Origin: Mobula birostris
Taxonomy: Eukaryota
Reading direction: 5' to 3'
DNA: 64,000 nt
Assembly: GCF_030028105.1 (NCBI RefSeq)
Contig: NC_092383.1
Span: forward strand, 85,889,921-85,953,920
This document shows, piece after piece, positions 30,001-36,000 of this stretch; the stretch's first letter is position 1, and every line of letters begins with the position of its first letter. Position numbers: made by a program.

Positions 30001-33000
30001 GAGAACATTTGTTCCCAATTTATGCTTCCAAGTTCCTGTCTGATAGCTTCATGTTTTCTCTTACTCCATTTAAACATTTTCCTAAGTTGTCTGCTCCTAT
30101 CCCTCTTCAATGCTATGGTAAAGGAGATAGCATTGTGATCACTGTCTTCAAAATGCTCTCCCACTGAGTGACCCACATGCACGAGGTGTTACATTTTGGG
30201 AGGTCAAATGCAATACAAAATTATGTTGTGACTGGCAGGACCCTTTGGAGCACTGATCTACAATGGGATTGTGGCATGCAAGTCCACAGCTCCCGAAAGT
30301 AACAATGCAAGTGAACAGGGCAGTAAAGGCAGTGTATGGCGTGCTTGCTACCATTGAGTATGAAAGTTGGGAAGTCATGTTGCAACTGTGTAAAACTTTA
30401 TCAACATTTGGAGTAATTGAGTGTAGTTTTGGTCTTCACACTGTAGAAATTATGTGGAGGCTTCGGAGCTGGTGCAATAGAGGTTAACCATGGTTTGGCC
30501 TGGATTAGTGTATAATAGCTATATGGAGAGCTTGGACAAGTTGGAGTGTCAGAGCCTGAGGGGTGAGCTAGTGGAAGAGTATAAAACTATGGAAGGTATA
30601 GATAGGGGAGATAGTCATGGTAAAAGTCTAAAATACCAAAGGACTTACATTTAGGCGAGCAGTAGAAAACTTTGAAGGAGATGTAGGAGGCATTTTTTGA
30701 TACACAGGGAGTATAAATAGCACCTGGAATGGTCTACCAAGGGACGTGGTGGAAGCAGATACAATAGCAACATTGAAATGGTATTTAAACAGACACATGG
30801 ACAGGTAAGAACATGTGTGGGCAGATGGGATTAGTTAGATTGGAATAATGGTCAGCACAGACAGGGTGAACCACAGGGCCTTTCCCTGTGTTATACCCTG
30901 TATGACCTATATTCTATATTCTTTGTTTCACTGAGATTGCCTCTAAGTTGAGAAAGTAGAATTCCAAGCAGTCTCATACAGCAATCTCTCATTATATAAC
31001 AGATTCAAATCCCCAAGAATTTTTCTGGGAAATCTTTGCTGTACTCAATCCATTGTAGGTGTATCCTTCCTTAGGTGGGAAGAACCAGACTTGTACAAAG
31101 TGGTCCAGATGCAGTTTTACCAAAACTCTATGTAATTAGGACAAGATAAATGCCTGAAAGAAATTATGATTGAAGAGGGGGTGGTGGGAGTGGGGTGTCA
31201 GGGTGGATATTGTAGAAGTCAGAATGAGGGACAAGAGCGTTTTGACATTTGTAGAAATGATCTAGCCTCCGAGAGGACTACAACCTTGCTGTGGTTTGTA
31301 GGTATGTGTGCCACAATGACCCCAAGAGCTATGTTGACTGGAGTCAAGGCATTATGCTTTGCCTCTTGATAGGGTCACCTATGTCAAACAGGTTAAAGTG
31401 TGGAGGACAGACTCACAGTGGTCCACTGGTCCTCCAGTTTTGGGGATCCAGCTCAGGGCTAAGAACACTGACTGGCGAAACAAAATTGTTACGGAAAGAG
31501 CAATGAAGTTTCCTTCTACATCTGAGTACGATGGTATTCCAGAGCCTCCAGCGGGACTTGCATGGCTGATGGCAGTGAAGACCATGGGGAGGCTACCGAC
31601 ATGATGAAGGAAGCCCTGAAAATCATGAGAGATGGAGGACCTTCATTGCTGCTCTAAATGCCAGCGGTATATTGGGCAGTAACATATCGATGATCCAGAC
31701 TCAGACCCTCATTGCCAGTTGGTTATACTTGCTGATGAAGGGGAACTGGAAAAGTGTTGGGGGTGGGGGAAGCGTGTGTGGAAGAAGCATTTCAGAATAA
31801 GCTTGACAAAGTTATTATGTGGCTAGATTAAAGCAGAAGAATTACACTCAGTGGCCACTTTATTAGATACAACTATACACCAAATCGTTAATGCAAATAT
31901 CTGATCAGCCAATCAGCCAGTCAGCAACTCAATGCAAAAAATGCATTGCATAAAAGCATGCAGACATGGTCAAAAGATTCAGTTCTTGTTCAGATCAAAC
32001 ATTGGAATGTGGAAGAAATGTTACAGAACAAAAAACATCCAGTGAGCGGCAGTTCTGTGAGTGCAAAAGTTTGCTAATGAGAGAGGTCAGAGGTGTTGGA
32101 AACCACTGCTTTTTAAAATAACACTTTTATAGAAGATTTGTACTTTTCAACAACTCATGTATTTTTCACAGTATGTGGTGATTCATCACTACTCACTGGC
32201 ACTTATTGGCAGAAAGCGGTATAGCAGTTAAGCTAACGGTGTATCAGCTTTCTCATTTTTCATTGGGCTAAGTATTAGCACATTACCAACATGATGTAGT
32301 CTATAAATTAGTTTATCTTTATCTGAGAAATTTTCCTTAACTATAAAAGTGATGGGTATTTCAGAGGCACAATTTTCTTGTCTTTACATTCTTTGCTGTT
32401 CATTTACCTCTTTGCAATGTTTCTCCACTCTGTATTTAGTTTGCTGAGTATTTGTATGTGTGCTTGTACTTTAAAATAGGTGATCATTAGAATTAAGATT
32501 GCTCATCATTCCTGACCCCCAGAAGAACCCTAAGGATCAGAAAATAAACAGAGGTCCGATAGAGGACAATGGCCAGACTGGTTCAAGCTGACAGGACAAC
32601 AACAGTAACTTAAATAACCATGCGTTACAACAGTGGTATGCAGAAGTACATCTCTCAATGCACAGCACATCAAATGTTGAAATGGATGGGCTACAGCAGC
32701 AGAAGCCTACAAACATACATTCAGTGGCCACTTTATGAGGTACAGGAGGTACCTACTAAAGTGGTCACCAAATATATAATACAACAATAAGTCAAGGATG
32801 GAGAAATAAACAATGTAGATTGAAGTAAGCAATTTCCCTAAAAATCAACACAAGTTTCCTGTGCAGTACCAGGAGAGAAAGCTTTCTGTTAGGGGTTTGC
32901 GGGTTGGTTTTGAAATTTGATATCTGCATCGATAACGTTGTCCTCATCAGTAACGGAGTGTACTGCTCTTGATTACCTTTTATATTTCACGTCTGCATAC

Positions 33001-36000
33001 ACAATTCAATTTTCATTGTTAGCCAATTGGGCAGCTGCCTCAGCGTTTTGAACATGGTGTAGATCTGTATAAATGATATTTTCTTCCAACGTGGCTACTT
33101 CCTGAAATAAAGAATAAATTCACAATGTATCTATGACTGATGGATGTGAAAGGTTACAGGGAAAAGGCAGGAACATGAGATGAAAAGATAAACAAATCAG
33201 CCATGATTGAGGGGCAGAGCTCGAAGGGCCGGAAGTGCCTATTCTCTGCTGTAGCTCAATTTAAATCAATCTATAAATATAGGAATAAATATTGCCTGGA
33301 TTGGAGTGTATTAGCTGTGGGCAGAAGTTGGACAAACTCAGATTGTTTTTGCTGGAGTGTTGGAGAGATCTGTGAGAAGTCTAAAATGTTATAGAAGGTA
33401 TAGATAGGGAAGATAATAGGAATCTTTTTTCCAGGGTTGAAATATTAAATAATGGTATTAATAATAATAGTTTGAGGGTGATCGTGGGAAAGTTTAAAGG
33501 ACGTTTGCGAGACAAGTTTTGTTTTACACTGCGGGTGGTGACTGCGTGGAATGCACAGTCAGACCCGCTGGTGGAAACAGAGACAATAAGGTGCTTTTGG
33601 ACATGGACATGAAAAGAGAAGGTTTGGAGGGATCCGGACCACATGAATTAGCTTAGAATCACTTCATGGTCAGTGCAGACATGGTGGGTCATGGAGTCCA
33701 TTCTTGTGCTGGACTGTGTCCCAAGTTCTCTCTAATTCCATTGCCCTATTTCCCACCAGGAATCGGTCTGATGGCGAGTCTGGCTGCCGGGAAATGGATG
33801 GTCAGTGGGTGCTGGGGGGTGGAGTATTGGAGCACATTGATGGGGACAGATAAAAAGAGCACAGAATAAGGGACGGGGTGACTGATCCATGAAACAGGGA
33901 TGGGATGTGGAATAGTCTGCCCTGGGAGGACTGAACACAGTCTGTTTAGCGCTGAGAACTGATTCCCTTTTTATGATTTTCAAGTTATTTAGATCTTGAG
34001 TAACACTTGCTTCTCATCGACCTGTTATTGTTGGATTACTACTTTTCTGAATGTAAATCTTTGACATTTCATACAGTTCAAAGACAGGAAAATATGCTGA
34101 GTTTCCTACTGGAAATTGGTATCCAGTCAGTGGGTCAGACCCCACACTTAGTGAAAGAAACATGGCTGGAGTTTCCCGACTCCTGCCCACAGCCTGCAGT
34201 GCTCTGAATGGCTGTGGAGCTTCAGGATATCCATGCTGTCCTTACCTTTCCCAGAGAAAATATGAATCAGACACTTCAGTGGGGACATCAAGTCAATCAA
34301 AGAGAAACCTACCGTCAGATACTTGTAGATGCACGTCATACACTGGATGATTGCCAGATGTTGTAATTCCACATCTGTAAAGTCCTGTATCATTAGAGAC
34401 AAGATTCTCCATAGTAACAGTAAATATTCCCTGGTATGTGTTATCTCTGATTGTCATTCCTCCATACTGCTCATTTGTCCCAATTGTATTCATTAACAAT
34501 GTGCATTGGCGATCCCACATGCGGCACAAATACTTTGTGTGTGAACGGTACATTGGTGCATAGTGACAATCGATTGTGATTGCTCTTCCCGCAACTCCTC
34601 TTACTTTATCTTCTGCCCATAAAGCACCTGAAACTGAGGGAGAATTTTTTCAGAAAATGGATAGGTAAAATCAAATTCACTCAAGCAGATTCTAGATAGT
34701 TTAATGTCACTTCCAGGACCTAAGTGCAAAGGAGGACAAAATACTTGTTACTTTGGATAGAATGCTGCTCACAAAAATAAGCACAATTGATAAAGAACAC
34801 AATGTGAAAAGTTGTTTTATTTAAAGCTGTCACTGCATTCTAAGGAATCTACCCGCTGTCAATTGGTACAATTGAATTCCACATTAAACTTAGAAGACAA
34901 CAGCATTGTCCCTCATCACGTGCTCACAGCTCTTCATAAGTAATGATTTTTATTTGATTGGAGTCATCATTATCACTGCCTACTAATGTCTCGGTGTGTT
35001 TCTACATTTCTGAGTCAATAGATTACTGATCCAGTCCCATTCCAGGCAGGTGAGCATAAGATCAGTGGTGGGTAACTTACTGGAGGTGATTGTGTGAAAC
35101 AGGATCTACCTGAAATTGTAAAGGCTAGATCTGATTTTGGATTGTCAACATGGTTTTGTGCTTGAGAGATTGTGTCTCAAAAAAAATGGACTGAGTTTAT
35201 GTGAAGAGGTGACCAAAAGGACTGATGAGGACAGGGAGAGGGTTCAGAGAAGATTCACAAGAATGATTGCAGGAATGAAAGGGTTACTATATGAGGAACA
35301 TCTGGCAGCTCTTGGGCTGTATTCCCTGGAGTTCAGGAGAATGAGGAGGGATCTCATAGAAACATTCCGAATGTTAAAAGGCCTGAACAGATTAGGTATG
35401 GCAAAGTTATTTCCCATGGCAGAGCAGACTCGATGGGCCAAATGGCCTACTCTGCTCCTATATCTTACGGTCTTATGACAATAGAGGTTAGCACACGGAG
35501 ATCAGCAACGTCTTTGAGAAAGTTTCACATAGTAGACTGGTCTGTAATGTGGGATCACATGATAAGCCAGAAGGATGGATACTGAATAGGTTTGGTGGAA
35601 GGAGCAGATTGGTAGTGGAACGTTGTTTTTCTGACAACATCAGACTTCATCACCAGTTGCGTGTTGTCGGAATCAGCGTTCTTATTTATTAACCAGATAT
35701 TTATCATCTATATTGATAATTTGCAATTGTAATGTAGGTGGCATGATTAATAAATTGTGGGTGATATTGTAGTGCAGTGGAAACAGCAGAAGTTTACAAT
35801 AGGATCTAGAAAATAAACCGGTGTTCAGCCCCATTACTCTGTGCCAGCACGATCCCCCCACCTGAGCCCATCCTGTATGCCTGTATTTGACCCATCTCCC
35901 TCTCTTCTCAGTACTACCATCGAGAGGGAGGAGCAGGATCCTGGGTCCTATGCCAGGACCAGTGTCACCCTCCTCTGCACTGAACTGACTCTGCAGCTGT

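What the first reader, a model, noticed from the sequence alone, without database searches (positions are those of the whole stretch)
32889..33101. Orphan ITIM tail exon lying directly behind a V exon, with no C2 or TM between them
IIYTDL and IVYADV fit the (I/V/L/S)xYxx(L/V) ITIM consensus. VIDADI looks like a third motif with Tyr changed to Asp, in a roughly 22-24 aa repeat spacing. There are two in-frame stops. Similarity of the V-downstream intron to the 60-61 kb copy ends at about 33290 next to a CR1 tail, which suggests a deletion removed C2, stalk and TM from an inhibitory gene. This shows the cluster held both inhibitory and activating members.
Basis: partly seen in the sequence, partly recalled or inferred. 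Interest (0 to 1): 0.65.

Follow-up and report, generated by a model that had tools for sequence, protein, structure and literature searches.

The report
Dead ITIM tail exon, ray receptor cluster
This is the decayed last exon of an inhibitory immune receptor gene of a ray, stranded next to a V-domain exon without its membrane-spanning exon: an ordinary relic of gene birth and death in a known receptor family.

Summary
On the minus strand, 33101-32889 begins directly after an AG acceptor and reads EVATLEENIIYTDL...IVYADV...VIDADI. The ITIM motifs alone are not above chance: the window has 250 consensus matches in six frames and 11 pairs 20-30 codons apart. Homology is decisive. All 70 residues align at 70-73% identity with the C-terminal tails of annotated batoid 'polymeric immunoglobulin receptor-like' (MDIR-family) proteins, best E 5e-30. 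36 of 111 family proteins carry this tail. The two internal stops align with Gly and Lys/Arg, and the Asp of VIDADI aligns with Tyr. The 'terminal' TAA aligns with Lys, and homology runs on about 12 codons, so there are three premature stops. A profile of the inhibitory stalk-TM-juxtamembrane segment matches only a stalk exon at 55.7 kb, so no inhibitory TM exon was found anywhere in the window. No hydrophobic stretch lies between the V exon and the tail. Activating-type TM exons lie at 49.2 and 9.0 kb. Intron comparison shows that the V copy lost its downstream C2 exon, with a truncated LINE end at the junction. Whether that loss was a deletion or a partial duplication is not settled. This is a pseudogene relic of low novelty.

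The parts
32838..33101 (-). Pseudo-exon: last coding exon (cytoplasmic ITIM tail) of an inhibitory MDIR / 'pIgR-like' receptor. Homology is demonstrable from 33101 to about 32853. The next in-frame stop after the three premature ones is TAG at 32840-32838.
   Evidence: It is single copy in the window.
33102..33103 (-). AG splice acceptor with pyrimidine tract. The exon starts in phase 0.
   Evidence: ttatttcag|gaagta. The homologues' alignment starts at the first codon.
33060..33077 (-). ITIM 1, IIYTDL
   Evidence: It aligns with I(V/I)Y(A/T)DL of the homologues.
33006..33008 (-). Premature stop TGA. Of 17 aligned ray tails, 15 have Gly and 2 have Glu here.
32988..33005 (-). ITIM 2, IVYADV, lying downstream of the first stop
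32973..32975 (-). Premature stop TAA. Of 17 aligned ray tails, 16 have Lys or Arg and 1 has Ile here.
32919..32936 (-). Third motif VIDADI. The GAT (Asp) at 32930-32928 stands where 16 of 17 homologues have Tyr (xTYADI).
32889..32891 (-). In the homologues this position is Lys or Arg, and the alignment continues after it (QKAFSPGT...).
33125..33290 (+). 5'-truncated 3' end of a LINE ('CR1 B'; the CR1 label is recalled). It fills the junction between the tail exon and the V module. The stretch supported by BLAST is 33133-33250.
   Evidence: the six matches at E below 0.001 are to other copies of the same LINE tail. Long copies carry RVT_1.
33291..33740 (+). Older LINE 3' fragment ('CR1 A'), shared with the 60655-61100 copy and absent at the matching site of the 16 kb copy. 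Similarity to the 60 kb copy begins at its 5' end.
34313..34633 (-). V-set exon, phase 1 to 1, with an intact reading frame and both canonical Cys. It is the only undamaged V exon of the four in the window.
   Evidence: V-set E 4e-9; 88.9% to P0040 residues 228-335
32480..32775 (+). Remnant of a Tc1-like transposon that cuts off the 3' flank about 65 nt beyond the end of tail homology. The identification is weak.
   Evidence: HTH_Tnp_Tc3_2, E 0.0011, below the curated cut-off
49165..49255 (-). Activating-type TM exon (FMIWKVGRWLLFTLLLICTISVSWFTREIK) with Lys and Arg in the helix. It ends in phase 0.
   Evidence: (96.8% to P0046/P0075)
8979..9086 (-). Second activating-type TM exon
55700..55778 (-). 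Stalk exon (GPIDFCEKTVTELMTTAQREETTSAQ) of the gene whose V and C2 exons lie at 62.0 and 59.4 kb. It is the only match in the window to the inhibitory stalk-TM profile, and only the stalk part matches.
59063..59416 (-). Membrane-proximal C2 exon of the sister copy. It is the kind of exon that is missing behind the 34.6 kb V exon.
   Evidence: (87% to P0007 residues 760-869)

Best explanation
The stretch is the pseudogenised terminal exon of an inhibitory member of the ray MDIR family, which databases annotate as 'polymeric immunoglobulin receptor-like'. In intact relatives this single exon follows a TM exon and a short juxtamembrane piece (...CLLCYLKRKNRESKHNTSHRGGNNETQ|EMATLEEN...). It supplies three tyrosine motifs (IVYADL, xVYAxV/M, xTYADI). 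From general knowledge of ITIM receptors, these motifs would be phosphorylated and recruit SH2 phosphatases; that was not tested here. In this window the exon can no longer do this. It has three nonsense codons, and the third Tyr is Asp. No inhibitory-type TM or juxtamembrane exon was found anywhere in the 64 kb. Its nearest upstream exon is a V exon whose phase (1) does not match the tail's phase (0). The V exon belongs to a duplicated V module whose sister copy at 62 kb still has a C2 and a stalk exon behind it. The copy at 34.6 kb has lost these. A 5'-truncated LINE 3' end sits exactly at the junction, about 25 nt upstream of the tail's acceptor. The most likely history (inferred) is this: an inhibitory gene (V-C2-stalk/TM-juxtamembrane-tail) lay beside activating paralogues, a rearrangement tied to the LINE insertion removed its middle exons, and the tail then decayed neutrally. 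Shown: the homology, the stops, the absence of any recognisable TM exon, the junction, and the activating exons nearby. Inferred: that the V exon and the tail once belonged to one gene, and that the loss was a deletion.
For:: a 70-residue end-to-end match at 70-73% identity to the tails of P0007, P0040, P0053, P0010, P0013 and P0038 (E 5e-30 to 6e-29); 36 of 111 family proteins have the tail at E<=1e-5, among them skate MDIR3 (P0032). In all of them except P0063 a hydrophobic TM and a basic juxtamembrane piece precede it; a scan of 1.84e9 representatives gives 3 proteins at E<=1e-3. Two of them (P0053 and P0067) are named ray proteins of this family; the third (P0112) comes from the unnamed library and I did not examine it; the stops align with Gly/Glu, Lys/Arg/Ile and Lys/Arg, and the Asp aligns with Tyr in 16 of 17 tails; the tail profile hits four collinear same-frame pieces from 33101 to 32853 and nothing else. 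The stalk-TM-juxtamembrane profile hits only the stalk at 55.7 kb (E 0.007, profile positions 2-24 of about 70); there are 0 hydrophobic 19-residue windows on the minus strand of 33102-34310; 33291-35229 matches 60655-62578 (78%); the 16 kb and 62 kb copies are collinear from the C2 exon up to 15790/60334 and again from 15966/61411. The LINE fragment 'A' is present only in the 34 kb and 62 kb copies. That makes those two sisters and the missing C2 a derived loss; a LINE tail lies at 33133-33250; activating TM and terminal exons are present.
Against: At the 20 alignment columns where at least 16 of 17 homologues agree, the window departs at only 2, no more than live homologues do (0-8 of 20-24 columns). 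So apart from the stops the exon is not visibly more decayed, and the decay may be recent. The tail's diagnostic residues (SRAVHSVTDEDNV) group it with P0007/P0053/P0013/P0063. The V exon is closest to P0040 (88.9%), whose tail belongs to the other subgroup. The V exon and the tail therefore need not come from one gene. The break lies exactly at the 5' end of LINE fragment 'A'. At the same point the 62 kb copy carries a different, younger repeat, 91% identical to 29067-29294. That fits an insertion hot spot or a duplication end-point as well as it fits a deletion. No leader exon was found for any gene in the window. The word-index search with the tail found nothing (the tool itself calls this weak evidence). 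No transcript data or orthologous locus could be consulted.
Confidence: 0.8

Rival explanations
1. Partial duplication rather than deletion. A V module running from the 5' end of LINE fragment 'A' to about 36.2 kb was copied next to the 3' end of an inhibitory gene that was already broken. On this view the V exon and the tail were never exons of one gene.
For: Similarity to the 62 kb copy starts exactly at the 5' end of the shared LINE fragment and stops at 36191/63300. That is a discrete 2.9 kb block. The V exon and the tail have different closest relatives. A second collapsed unit exists at 48.9-49.9 kb, with a truncated V exon directly upstream of a TM exon. Rearranged modules are therefore common here.
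Against: The sister copy and the 16 kb copy both have a C2 exon behind the V exon with collinear introns, so a whole-module duplication is the simpler origin. No target-site or transduction signature was looked for, and none can be shown with these tools.
Confidence: 0.3
2. The exon is still used. Cut short by the TGA, it would give a 31-residue tail with one ITIM, as an alternative last exon of an upstream gene.
For: The acceptor and pyrimidine tract are intact. The activating-type TM exon at 49255-49165 ends in phase 0, and the tail starts in phase 0, so that join would be in frame. Conserved columns are barely eroded.
Against: That TM exon has its own terminal exon 250 nt downstream (48909-48862), while the tail lies 16 kb further on behind transposon-rich DNA. 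Three nonsense codons and the lost Tyr fit neutral decay. The V exon next door is out of phase with the tail. There is no expression evidence.
Confidence: 0.04
3. Chance ITIM-like motifs in non-coding or transposon-derived DNA.
For: The consensus is loose: 250 matches in six frames of the window and 11 spaced pairs. LINE and Tc1-like remnants flank the stretch.
Against: Full-length homology to receptor tails reaches E 5e-30. LINE similarity stops at 33133 and does not enter the exon. No other copy exists in the window.
Confidence: 0.01
4. Assembly artefact: a false join at the LINE copies (33125-33291) in a repetitive multigene cluster dropped the middle exons.
For: The junction lies between two LINE fragments of one family in the same orientation. 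That is the kind of place where assemblers collapse sequence.
Against: The two LINE fragments are dissimilar and not contiguous in element coordinates, so there is no long identical repeat to collapse on. The window has no N. A false join would not explain the three stops.
Confidence: 0.05

Closest known systems
Modular domain immune-type receptors (MDIR) of the clearnose skate, and their 'polymeric immunoglobulin receptor-like' / 'CMRF35-like' / 'Fc receptor-like 5' annotated relatives in rays, sawfish and sharks
   Same: The cluster has the same V-set and C2 exons. MDIR3 and MDIR5 are among the hits. The tail aligns with MDIR3 (P0032) at 41% identity over 66 residues and at 70-73% with stingray and devil-ray proteins. 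The family is described as multigenic with activating and inhibitory members (passages of PMC3031540).
   Different: This copy is not a gene. It has three nonsense codons, has lost a Tyr, and has no TM exon. The primary MDIR paper (Cannon et al. 2006, Immunogenetics 58:362) was not held, so its content is known to me only from the citing passages and from recall.
Mammalian CD300 (CMRF35) and pIgR / TREM V domains
   Same: These are what the family is said to resemble structurally (PMC3031540). The automatic names of the hits say the same.
   Different: Only the V domain is comparable. The tail has no detectable relative outside the cartilaginous-fish family (3 hits, 0 Pfam families).
Paired inhibitory/activating receptor clusters evolving by birth and death (KIR, Ly49)
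   Same: Activating and inhibitory genes share ectodomains. Signalling function changes through stop codons in ITIM tails, recombination of signalling domains and pseudogenisation (PMC2213150, passages read).
   Different: These are unrelated gene families in mammals. Here the relic shows loss of a whole inhibitory signalling module, not conversion into an activating gene.

Membership tests
Inhibitory MDIR / batoid pIgR-like receptor, cytoplasmic tail exon | Sequence homology to the family's C-terminal tail over its whole length | tested here: met
   36 of 111 proteins, best E 4.8e-30; profile E 1e-11 and 3e-8 for the two large pieces; E 3.3e-22 in 1.84e9 proteins
Inhibitory MDIR / batoid pIgR-like receptor, cytoplasmic tail exon | ITIM consensus (I/V/L/S)xYxx(L/V/I) at the conserved tyrosines | tested here: inconclusive
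   Two of three motifs are kept (IIYTDL, IVYADV). The third has Asp for Tyr. The consensus as written is recalled.
Functional inhibitory receptor gene | Open reading frame through the tail | tested here: not met
   TGA at 33008-33006, TAA at 32975-32973 and TAA at 32891-32889, all at sense positions of the homologues
Functional inhibitory receptor gene | Uncharged TM exon and juxtamembrane piece upstream of the tail in the same gene | tested here: not met
   the profile of 35 homologous stalk-TM-juxtamembrane segments matches only a stalk at 55.7 kb; no hydrophobic stretch lies between 33102 and 34310.
Functional inhibitory receptor gene | Phase-compatible splicing from the neighbouring upstream exon | tested here: not met
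   The V exon ends in phase 1 (gac g|gtagg). The tail starts in phase 0. The join would shift the frame and stop after 20 codons (frame).
Functional inhibitory receptor gene | Tyrosine phosphorylation and SH2-phosphatase recruitment | not testable with these tools
   This needs biochemistry. It is moot for a pseudo-exon.
MDIR cluster (V-set plus C2 ectodomain exons, activating and inhibitory members) | CD300/pIgR-like V-set exons and C2 exons in one cluster | tested here: met
   V-set above the cut-off for 3 exons. The C2 exons fall below Pfam's cut-off (24.8 bits against 30) but are 54-87% identical to the C2 domains of homologues.
MDIR cluster (V-set plus C2 ectodomain exons, activating and inhibitory members) | Activating members with a charged TM and a short tail | tested here: met
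   IWKVGRW... TM exons at 49.2 and 9.0 kb, each followed by a 15-residue terminal exon
Processed (retrotransposed) pseudogene | Fused exons without introns, with a poly-A tail | tested here: not met
   The exon keeps its acceptor. No homology to the preceding exon is fused to it.

The most novel reading that the evidence does not exclude
The relic is not quite dead. Its acceptor is intact and its phase (0) matches the phase-0 donor of the activating-type TM exon at 49165. Used as an alternative last exon, it would put a single ITIM (IIYTDL, ending at the TGA) behind a TM helix that carries Lys and Arg. That would make a dual-signal receptor isoform in a cartilaginous fish. A more modest reading is that the junction records a LINE-insertion-mediated deletion that killed the inhibitory partner of a paired receptor set.
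Probability: 0.03. Interest if true: 0.5.

Novelty: new member of a known kind. Interest (0 to 1): 0.2.

Why it matters
It matters little beyond annotation. It marks an inhibitory pseudogene fragment in a ray MDIR cluster that automatic gene models would either miss or wrongly splice. It shows that this stretch of the cluster is largely a graveyard. Three of the four V exons are damaged, two units are collapsed, and the tail is dead. The damage is interleaved with LINE and DNA-transposon insertions. That pattern fits birth-and-death evolution of paired activating and inhibitory receptors, already described for KIR and Ly49 (PMC2213150). With orthologous loci from other stingrays, the junction could give a dated example of transposon-linked exon loss.

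Tried and rejected
1. I first suspected that the 'exon' was the antisense of a degenerate LINE tail, because a LINE 3' end starts 25-30 nt upstream. A sensitive blastn rejected this: LINE similarity covers 33133-33250 only.

2. I took 29067-29294 = 60420-60646 (91%) as a sign that 29.3-33.3 kb is an insertion in the 34 kb copy. I rejected this: it is a separate young repeat that ends at the LINE 'A' boundary in the 62 kb copy. From the translation I read it as the 3' end of a mariner-like transposase; that label is my own reading and was not tested.

3. I asked whether LINE 'B' continues the LINE at 30183-30802. It does not: that copy runs to its own 3' end.

4. Recombination between two LINE copies was rejected as the mechanism. 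'B' (the last ~130-165 nt of the element) and 'A' (starting about 450 nt from the 3' end) are not contiguous in element coordinates.

5. The word-index protein search with the tail found 56 candidates, none of which scored. The local search and the full HMMER scan superseded it.

6. A search for a signal-peptide exon using the first 22 residues of the family proteins that begin with Met found none. Only V and C2 exon matches and repeats came up.

7. A possible remnant of an inhibitory TM after the stalk exon (55698-55654) aligned weakly in tblastn but got no profile support. I do not claim it.

8. Papers: the MDIR primary paper and a 2010 review were not held.
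Full report
**What is there.** The window has no N. On the minus strand, directly after a pyrimidine tract and an AG at 33103-33102, the frame starting at 33101 reads EVATLEENIIYTDLHHVQNAEAAAQLANNEN*IVYADVKYKR*SRAVHSVTDEDNVIDADIKFQNQPANP*. IIYTDL and IVYADV fit the ITIM consensus, which I give from recall. VIDADI lies 23 residues after the second Tyr.

The motifs alone prove nothing. The consensus occurs 250 times in the 127,996 six-frame codons of this window, and 11 pairs lie 20-30 codons apart in one frame.

**Homology.** Pfam finds nothing in the stretch. 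I searched the neighbouring V exon (34293-34649, minus strand) on its own against the protein collection. It gave 111 proteins at E<=1e-5 among 205 candidates.
- Nearly all are 'polymeric immunoglobulin receptor-like', 'CMRF35-like' or 'Fc receptor-like 5' models from rays, skates, sawfish and sharks.
- They include Modular domain immune-type receptors 3 and 5 of the clearnose skate.
- The best identities, 87%, are to Hemitrygon and Mobula proteins. The window therefore comes from a stingray-like batoid. I did not try to go further than that.

A local BLASTP of the 70-residue translation (stops as X) against these 111 proteins gave end-to-end matches to their C-terminal ends. P0007 scored 71% at E 4.8e-30 and P0010 scored 73%. 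P0040, P0053, P0013 and P0038 scored 70-71%. In all, 36 of 111 proteins carry the tail at E<=1e-5, including skate MDIR3 at 41%. A scan of 1.84 billion representative proteins with the same 71 residues found 3 proteins at E<=1e-3, the best being P0053 at 3.3e-22. Two of the three (P0053 and P0067) are named ray proteins of this family. The third (P0112) is from the unnamed library and I did not examine it. The word-index search found nothing; the tool itself calls such a blank weak evidence.

**State of the exon.** I aligned the window's tail with 17 ray tails.
- The TGA at 33008-33006 stands where 15 homologues have Gly and 2 have Glu.
- The TAA at 32975-32973 stands where 16 have Lys or Arg and 1 has Ile.
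- The Asp of VIDADI (GAT at 32930-32928) stands where 16 of 17 have Tyr. One Hypanus sabinus protein (P0063) also has Asp.
The alignment then continues (QKAFSPGT...) for about 12 codons, to about 32853.

There are therefore three premature stops. Otherwise the exon is not badly eroded. At the 20 columns where at least 16 of 17 homologues agree, the window differs at 2, while live homologues differ at 0-8 of 20-24 columns by the same test. The exon is single copy in the window.

**What should precede it, and does not.** In 35 of the 36 tail-bearing homologues the tail follows a stalk, an uncharged TM helix and a basic juxtamembrane piece (...YIIVLSVVG...CLLCYLKRKNRESKHNTSHRGGNNETQ|E...). P0063 is the exception: its upstream piece is a repeated tail.

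I built a profile from those 35 upstream segments and ran it over all stop-to-stop pieces of the six frames. It matched only the stalk part (profile positions 2-24) of an exon at 55.7 kb, at E 0.007. Nothing in the window matched the TM or juxtamembrane part. On the minus strand between 33102 and 34310 no 19-residue window without a stop reaches a mean hydropathy of 1.6. The family's own TM exons reach about 1.7.

The V exon (34633-34313) ends in phase 1, and the tail starts in phase 0. A direct join would shift the frame and stop after 20 codons (frame).

**Exon by exon only.** I searched every exon separately and mapped database proteins onto the window.

**The cluster.** Mapping the 111 proteins onto the window gives the following exons, all on the minus strand.
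- V 62040-61726, C2 59416-59063, stalk 55778-55700 and a mini-exon at 55326-55282.
- A truncated V at 49869-49672, an activating-type TM at 49255-49165 and a terminal exon at 48909-48862.
- V 34633-34313 and the tail at 33101-32838.
- C2 20148-19819, V 16576-16253, C2 14851-14507, an activating-type TM at 9086-8979 and a terminal exon at 8726-8679.

The activating-type TM exons read FMIWKVGRWLLF..., with Lys and Arg in the helix, and are 97% identical to Mobula proteins. The cluster therefore did hold both kinds of receptor. That is already described for MDIRs (passages of PMC3031540). No signal-peptide exon was found. The rest of the window is largely transposon sequence (RVT_1).

**The junction.** Similarity between the 34 kb and 62 kb V modules runs over 33291-35229 = 60655-62578 (78%) and on to 36191 = 63300. 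It starts exactly at the 5' end of a shared, 5'-truncated LINE fragment, 'A'.

Between that point and the tail's acceptor lies only the last ~130-165 nt of another LINE copy, 'B'. Its BLAST-supported stretch is 33133-33250, with six matches at E below 0.001 to other copies of the LINE tail. About 25 nt of intron follow.

The 16 kb and 62 kb copies are collinear from their C2 exons up to 15790 = 60334 and again from 15966 = 61411. Fragment 'A' is absent from the 16 kb copy. The 34 kb and 62 kb copies thus share a derived insertion and are sisters. The sister and the outgroup copy both keep a C2 exon behind the V exon. By parsimony the 34 kb copy lost its C2 and whatever followed it.

- A LINE-insertion-associated or end-joining deletion within one V-C2-stalk/TM-tail gene is my preferred reading (about 0.5 of the total).
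- A partial duplication that set a V module beside the remains of another gene cannot be excluded (about 0.3). Three things favour it. The block is discrete. The 62 kb copy has a different, younger repeat at the very same boundary. The V exon is closest to P0040 (89%), while the tail's diagnostic residues group it with P0007/P0053/P0013/P0063.
- Recombination between the two LINE copies does not fit, because 'B' and 'A' are not contiguous in element coordinates.

On the 3' side, a weakly identified Tc1-like remnant begins about 65 nt beyond the end of tail homology.

**Comparison with what is known.** The feature is a pseudo-exon of a known family. It meets the homology test for the MDIR inhibitory tail. 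It fails every test for a working gene: open frame, TM exon, and phase. The wider pattern is paired activating and inhibitory genes that share ectodomains and turn over by stop codons, domain recombination and pseudogenisation. That pattern is described for KIR and Ly49 (PMC2213150, passages read).

I saw no paper on ITIM pseudo-exons in ray MDIR clusters. Only two searches bear on this. The primary MDIR paper was not held, and supplements are closed.

**Verdict.** Two corrections apply: there are three stops rather than two, and the deletion is likely but unproven. The finding is an ordinary relic of a known kind. Interest is 0.2.

Noticed in passing
window 34313-34633, 16253-16576, 61726-62040, 49672-49869 (all minus strand): Only one of the four V exons is undamaged, the one at 34.6 kb. 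The 62 kb exon has a 17-nt deletion that shifts the frame (stop at 61719-61717). The 49.8 kb exon has a 12-nt deletion and a TGG-to-TAG change, and it is cut off at 49672. The 16.5 kb exon has Tyr in place of the second canonical Cys (YRYG).
   Followed up: partly
window 34317-34628 versus 16256-16567: The 34.6 kb and 16.5 kb V exons differ at 27 nonsynonymous sites and only 1 synonymous site in 312 nt. Over the first 252 nt the counts are 19 and 0, and the binomial P against neutrality is about 0.01. Yet their flanking introns are only 72-80% identical. This suggests exon homogenisation followed by diversifying change, or strong diversifying selection on the V domain. The other two pairs show pN above pS, but not significantly.
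   Followed up: partly
window 48862-49869: A second collapsed unit: the first two thirds of a V exon lie about 400 nt upstream of an activating-type TM exon and its terminal exon. The flanks are homologous to 8364-9154 and 10270-10367 of the downstream gene. It sits inside what would be the stalk-to-TM intron of the 62 kb gene. The stalk exon (phase 2 end) and this TM exon (phase 2 start) are phase-compatible.
   Followed up: partly
window 60366-60654 and 29067-29310: Two copies of a young repeat, 91% identical to each other. In translation the repeat looks like the C-terminal end of a mariner-like transposase (my reading, not tested). One copy abuts the 5' end of the shared LINE fragment in the 62 kb gene, at the very point where the 34 kb copy has another LINE end.
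   Followed up: partly
window 20500-21850: A G+C-richer stretch of short tandem repeats, with ORFs reading ARQGEARQGE... and LALPCLALPC.... It lies just upstream of the C2 exon at 20.1 kb, where a V exon would be expected.
   Followed up: no
window 23073-24665 versus 36526-37833 and 39582-39856: A 1.3-1.6 kb segment upstream of the 20 kb C2 exon is 79-86% identical to the segment upstream of the 34.6 kb V exon. The latter copy is interrupted at 37.8-39.6 kb by an element with a long ORF (37654-38634). This hints at a larger old duplication unit.
   Followed up: no
proteins P0063 and P0017 (Hypanus sabinus): P0063 carries the tail module three times in tandem (juxtamembrane piece plus the first ITIM region, repeated). 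It shares the Tyr-to-Asp change of the third motif with the window. P0017 ends after one and a half modules. Tail exons of this family therefore duplicate and are spliced at an internal site.
   Followed up: no
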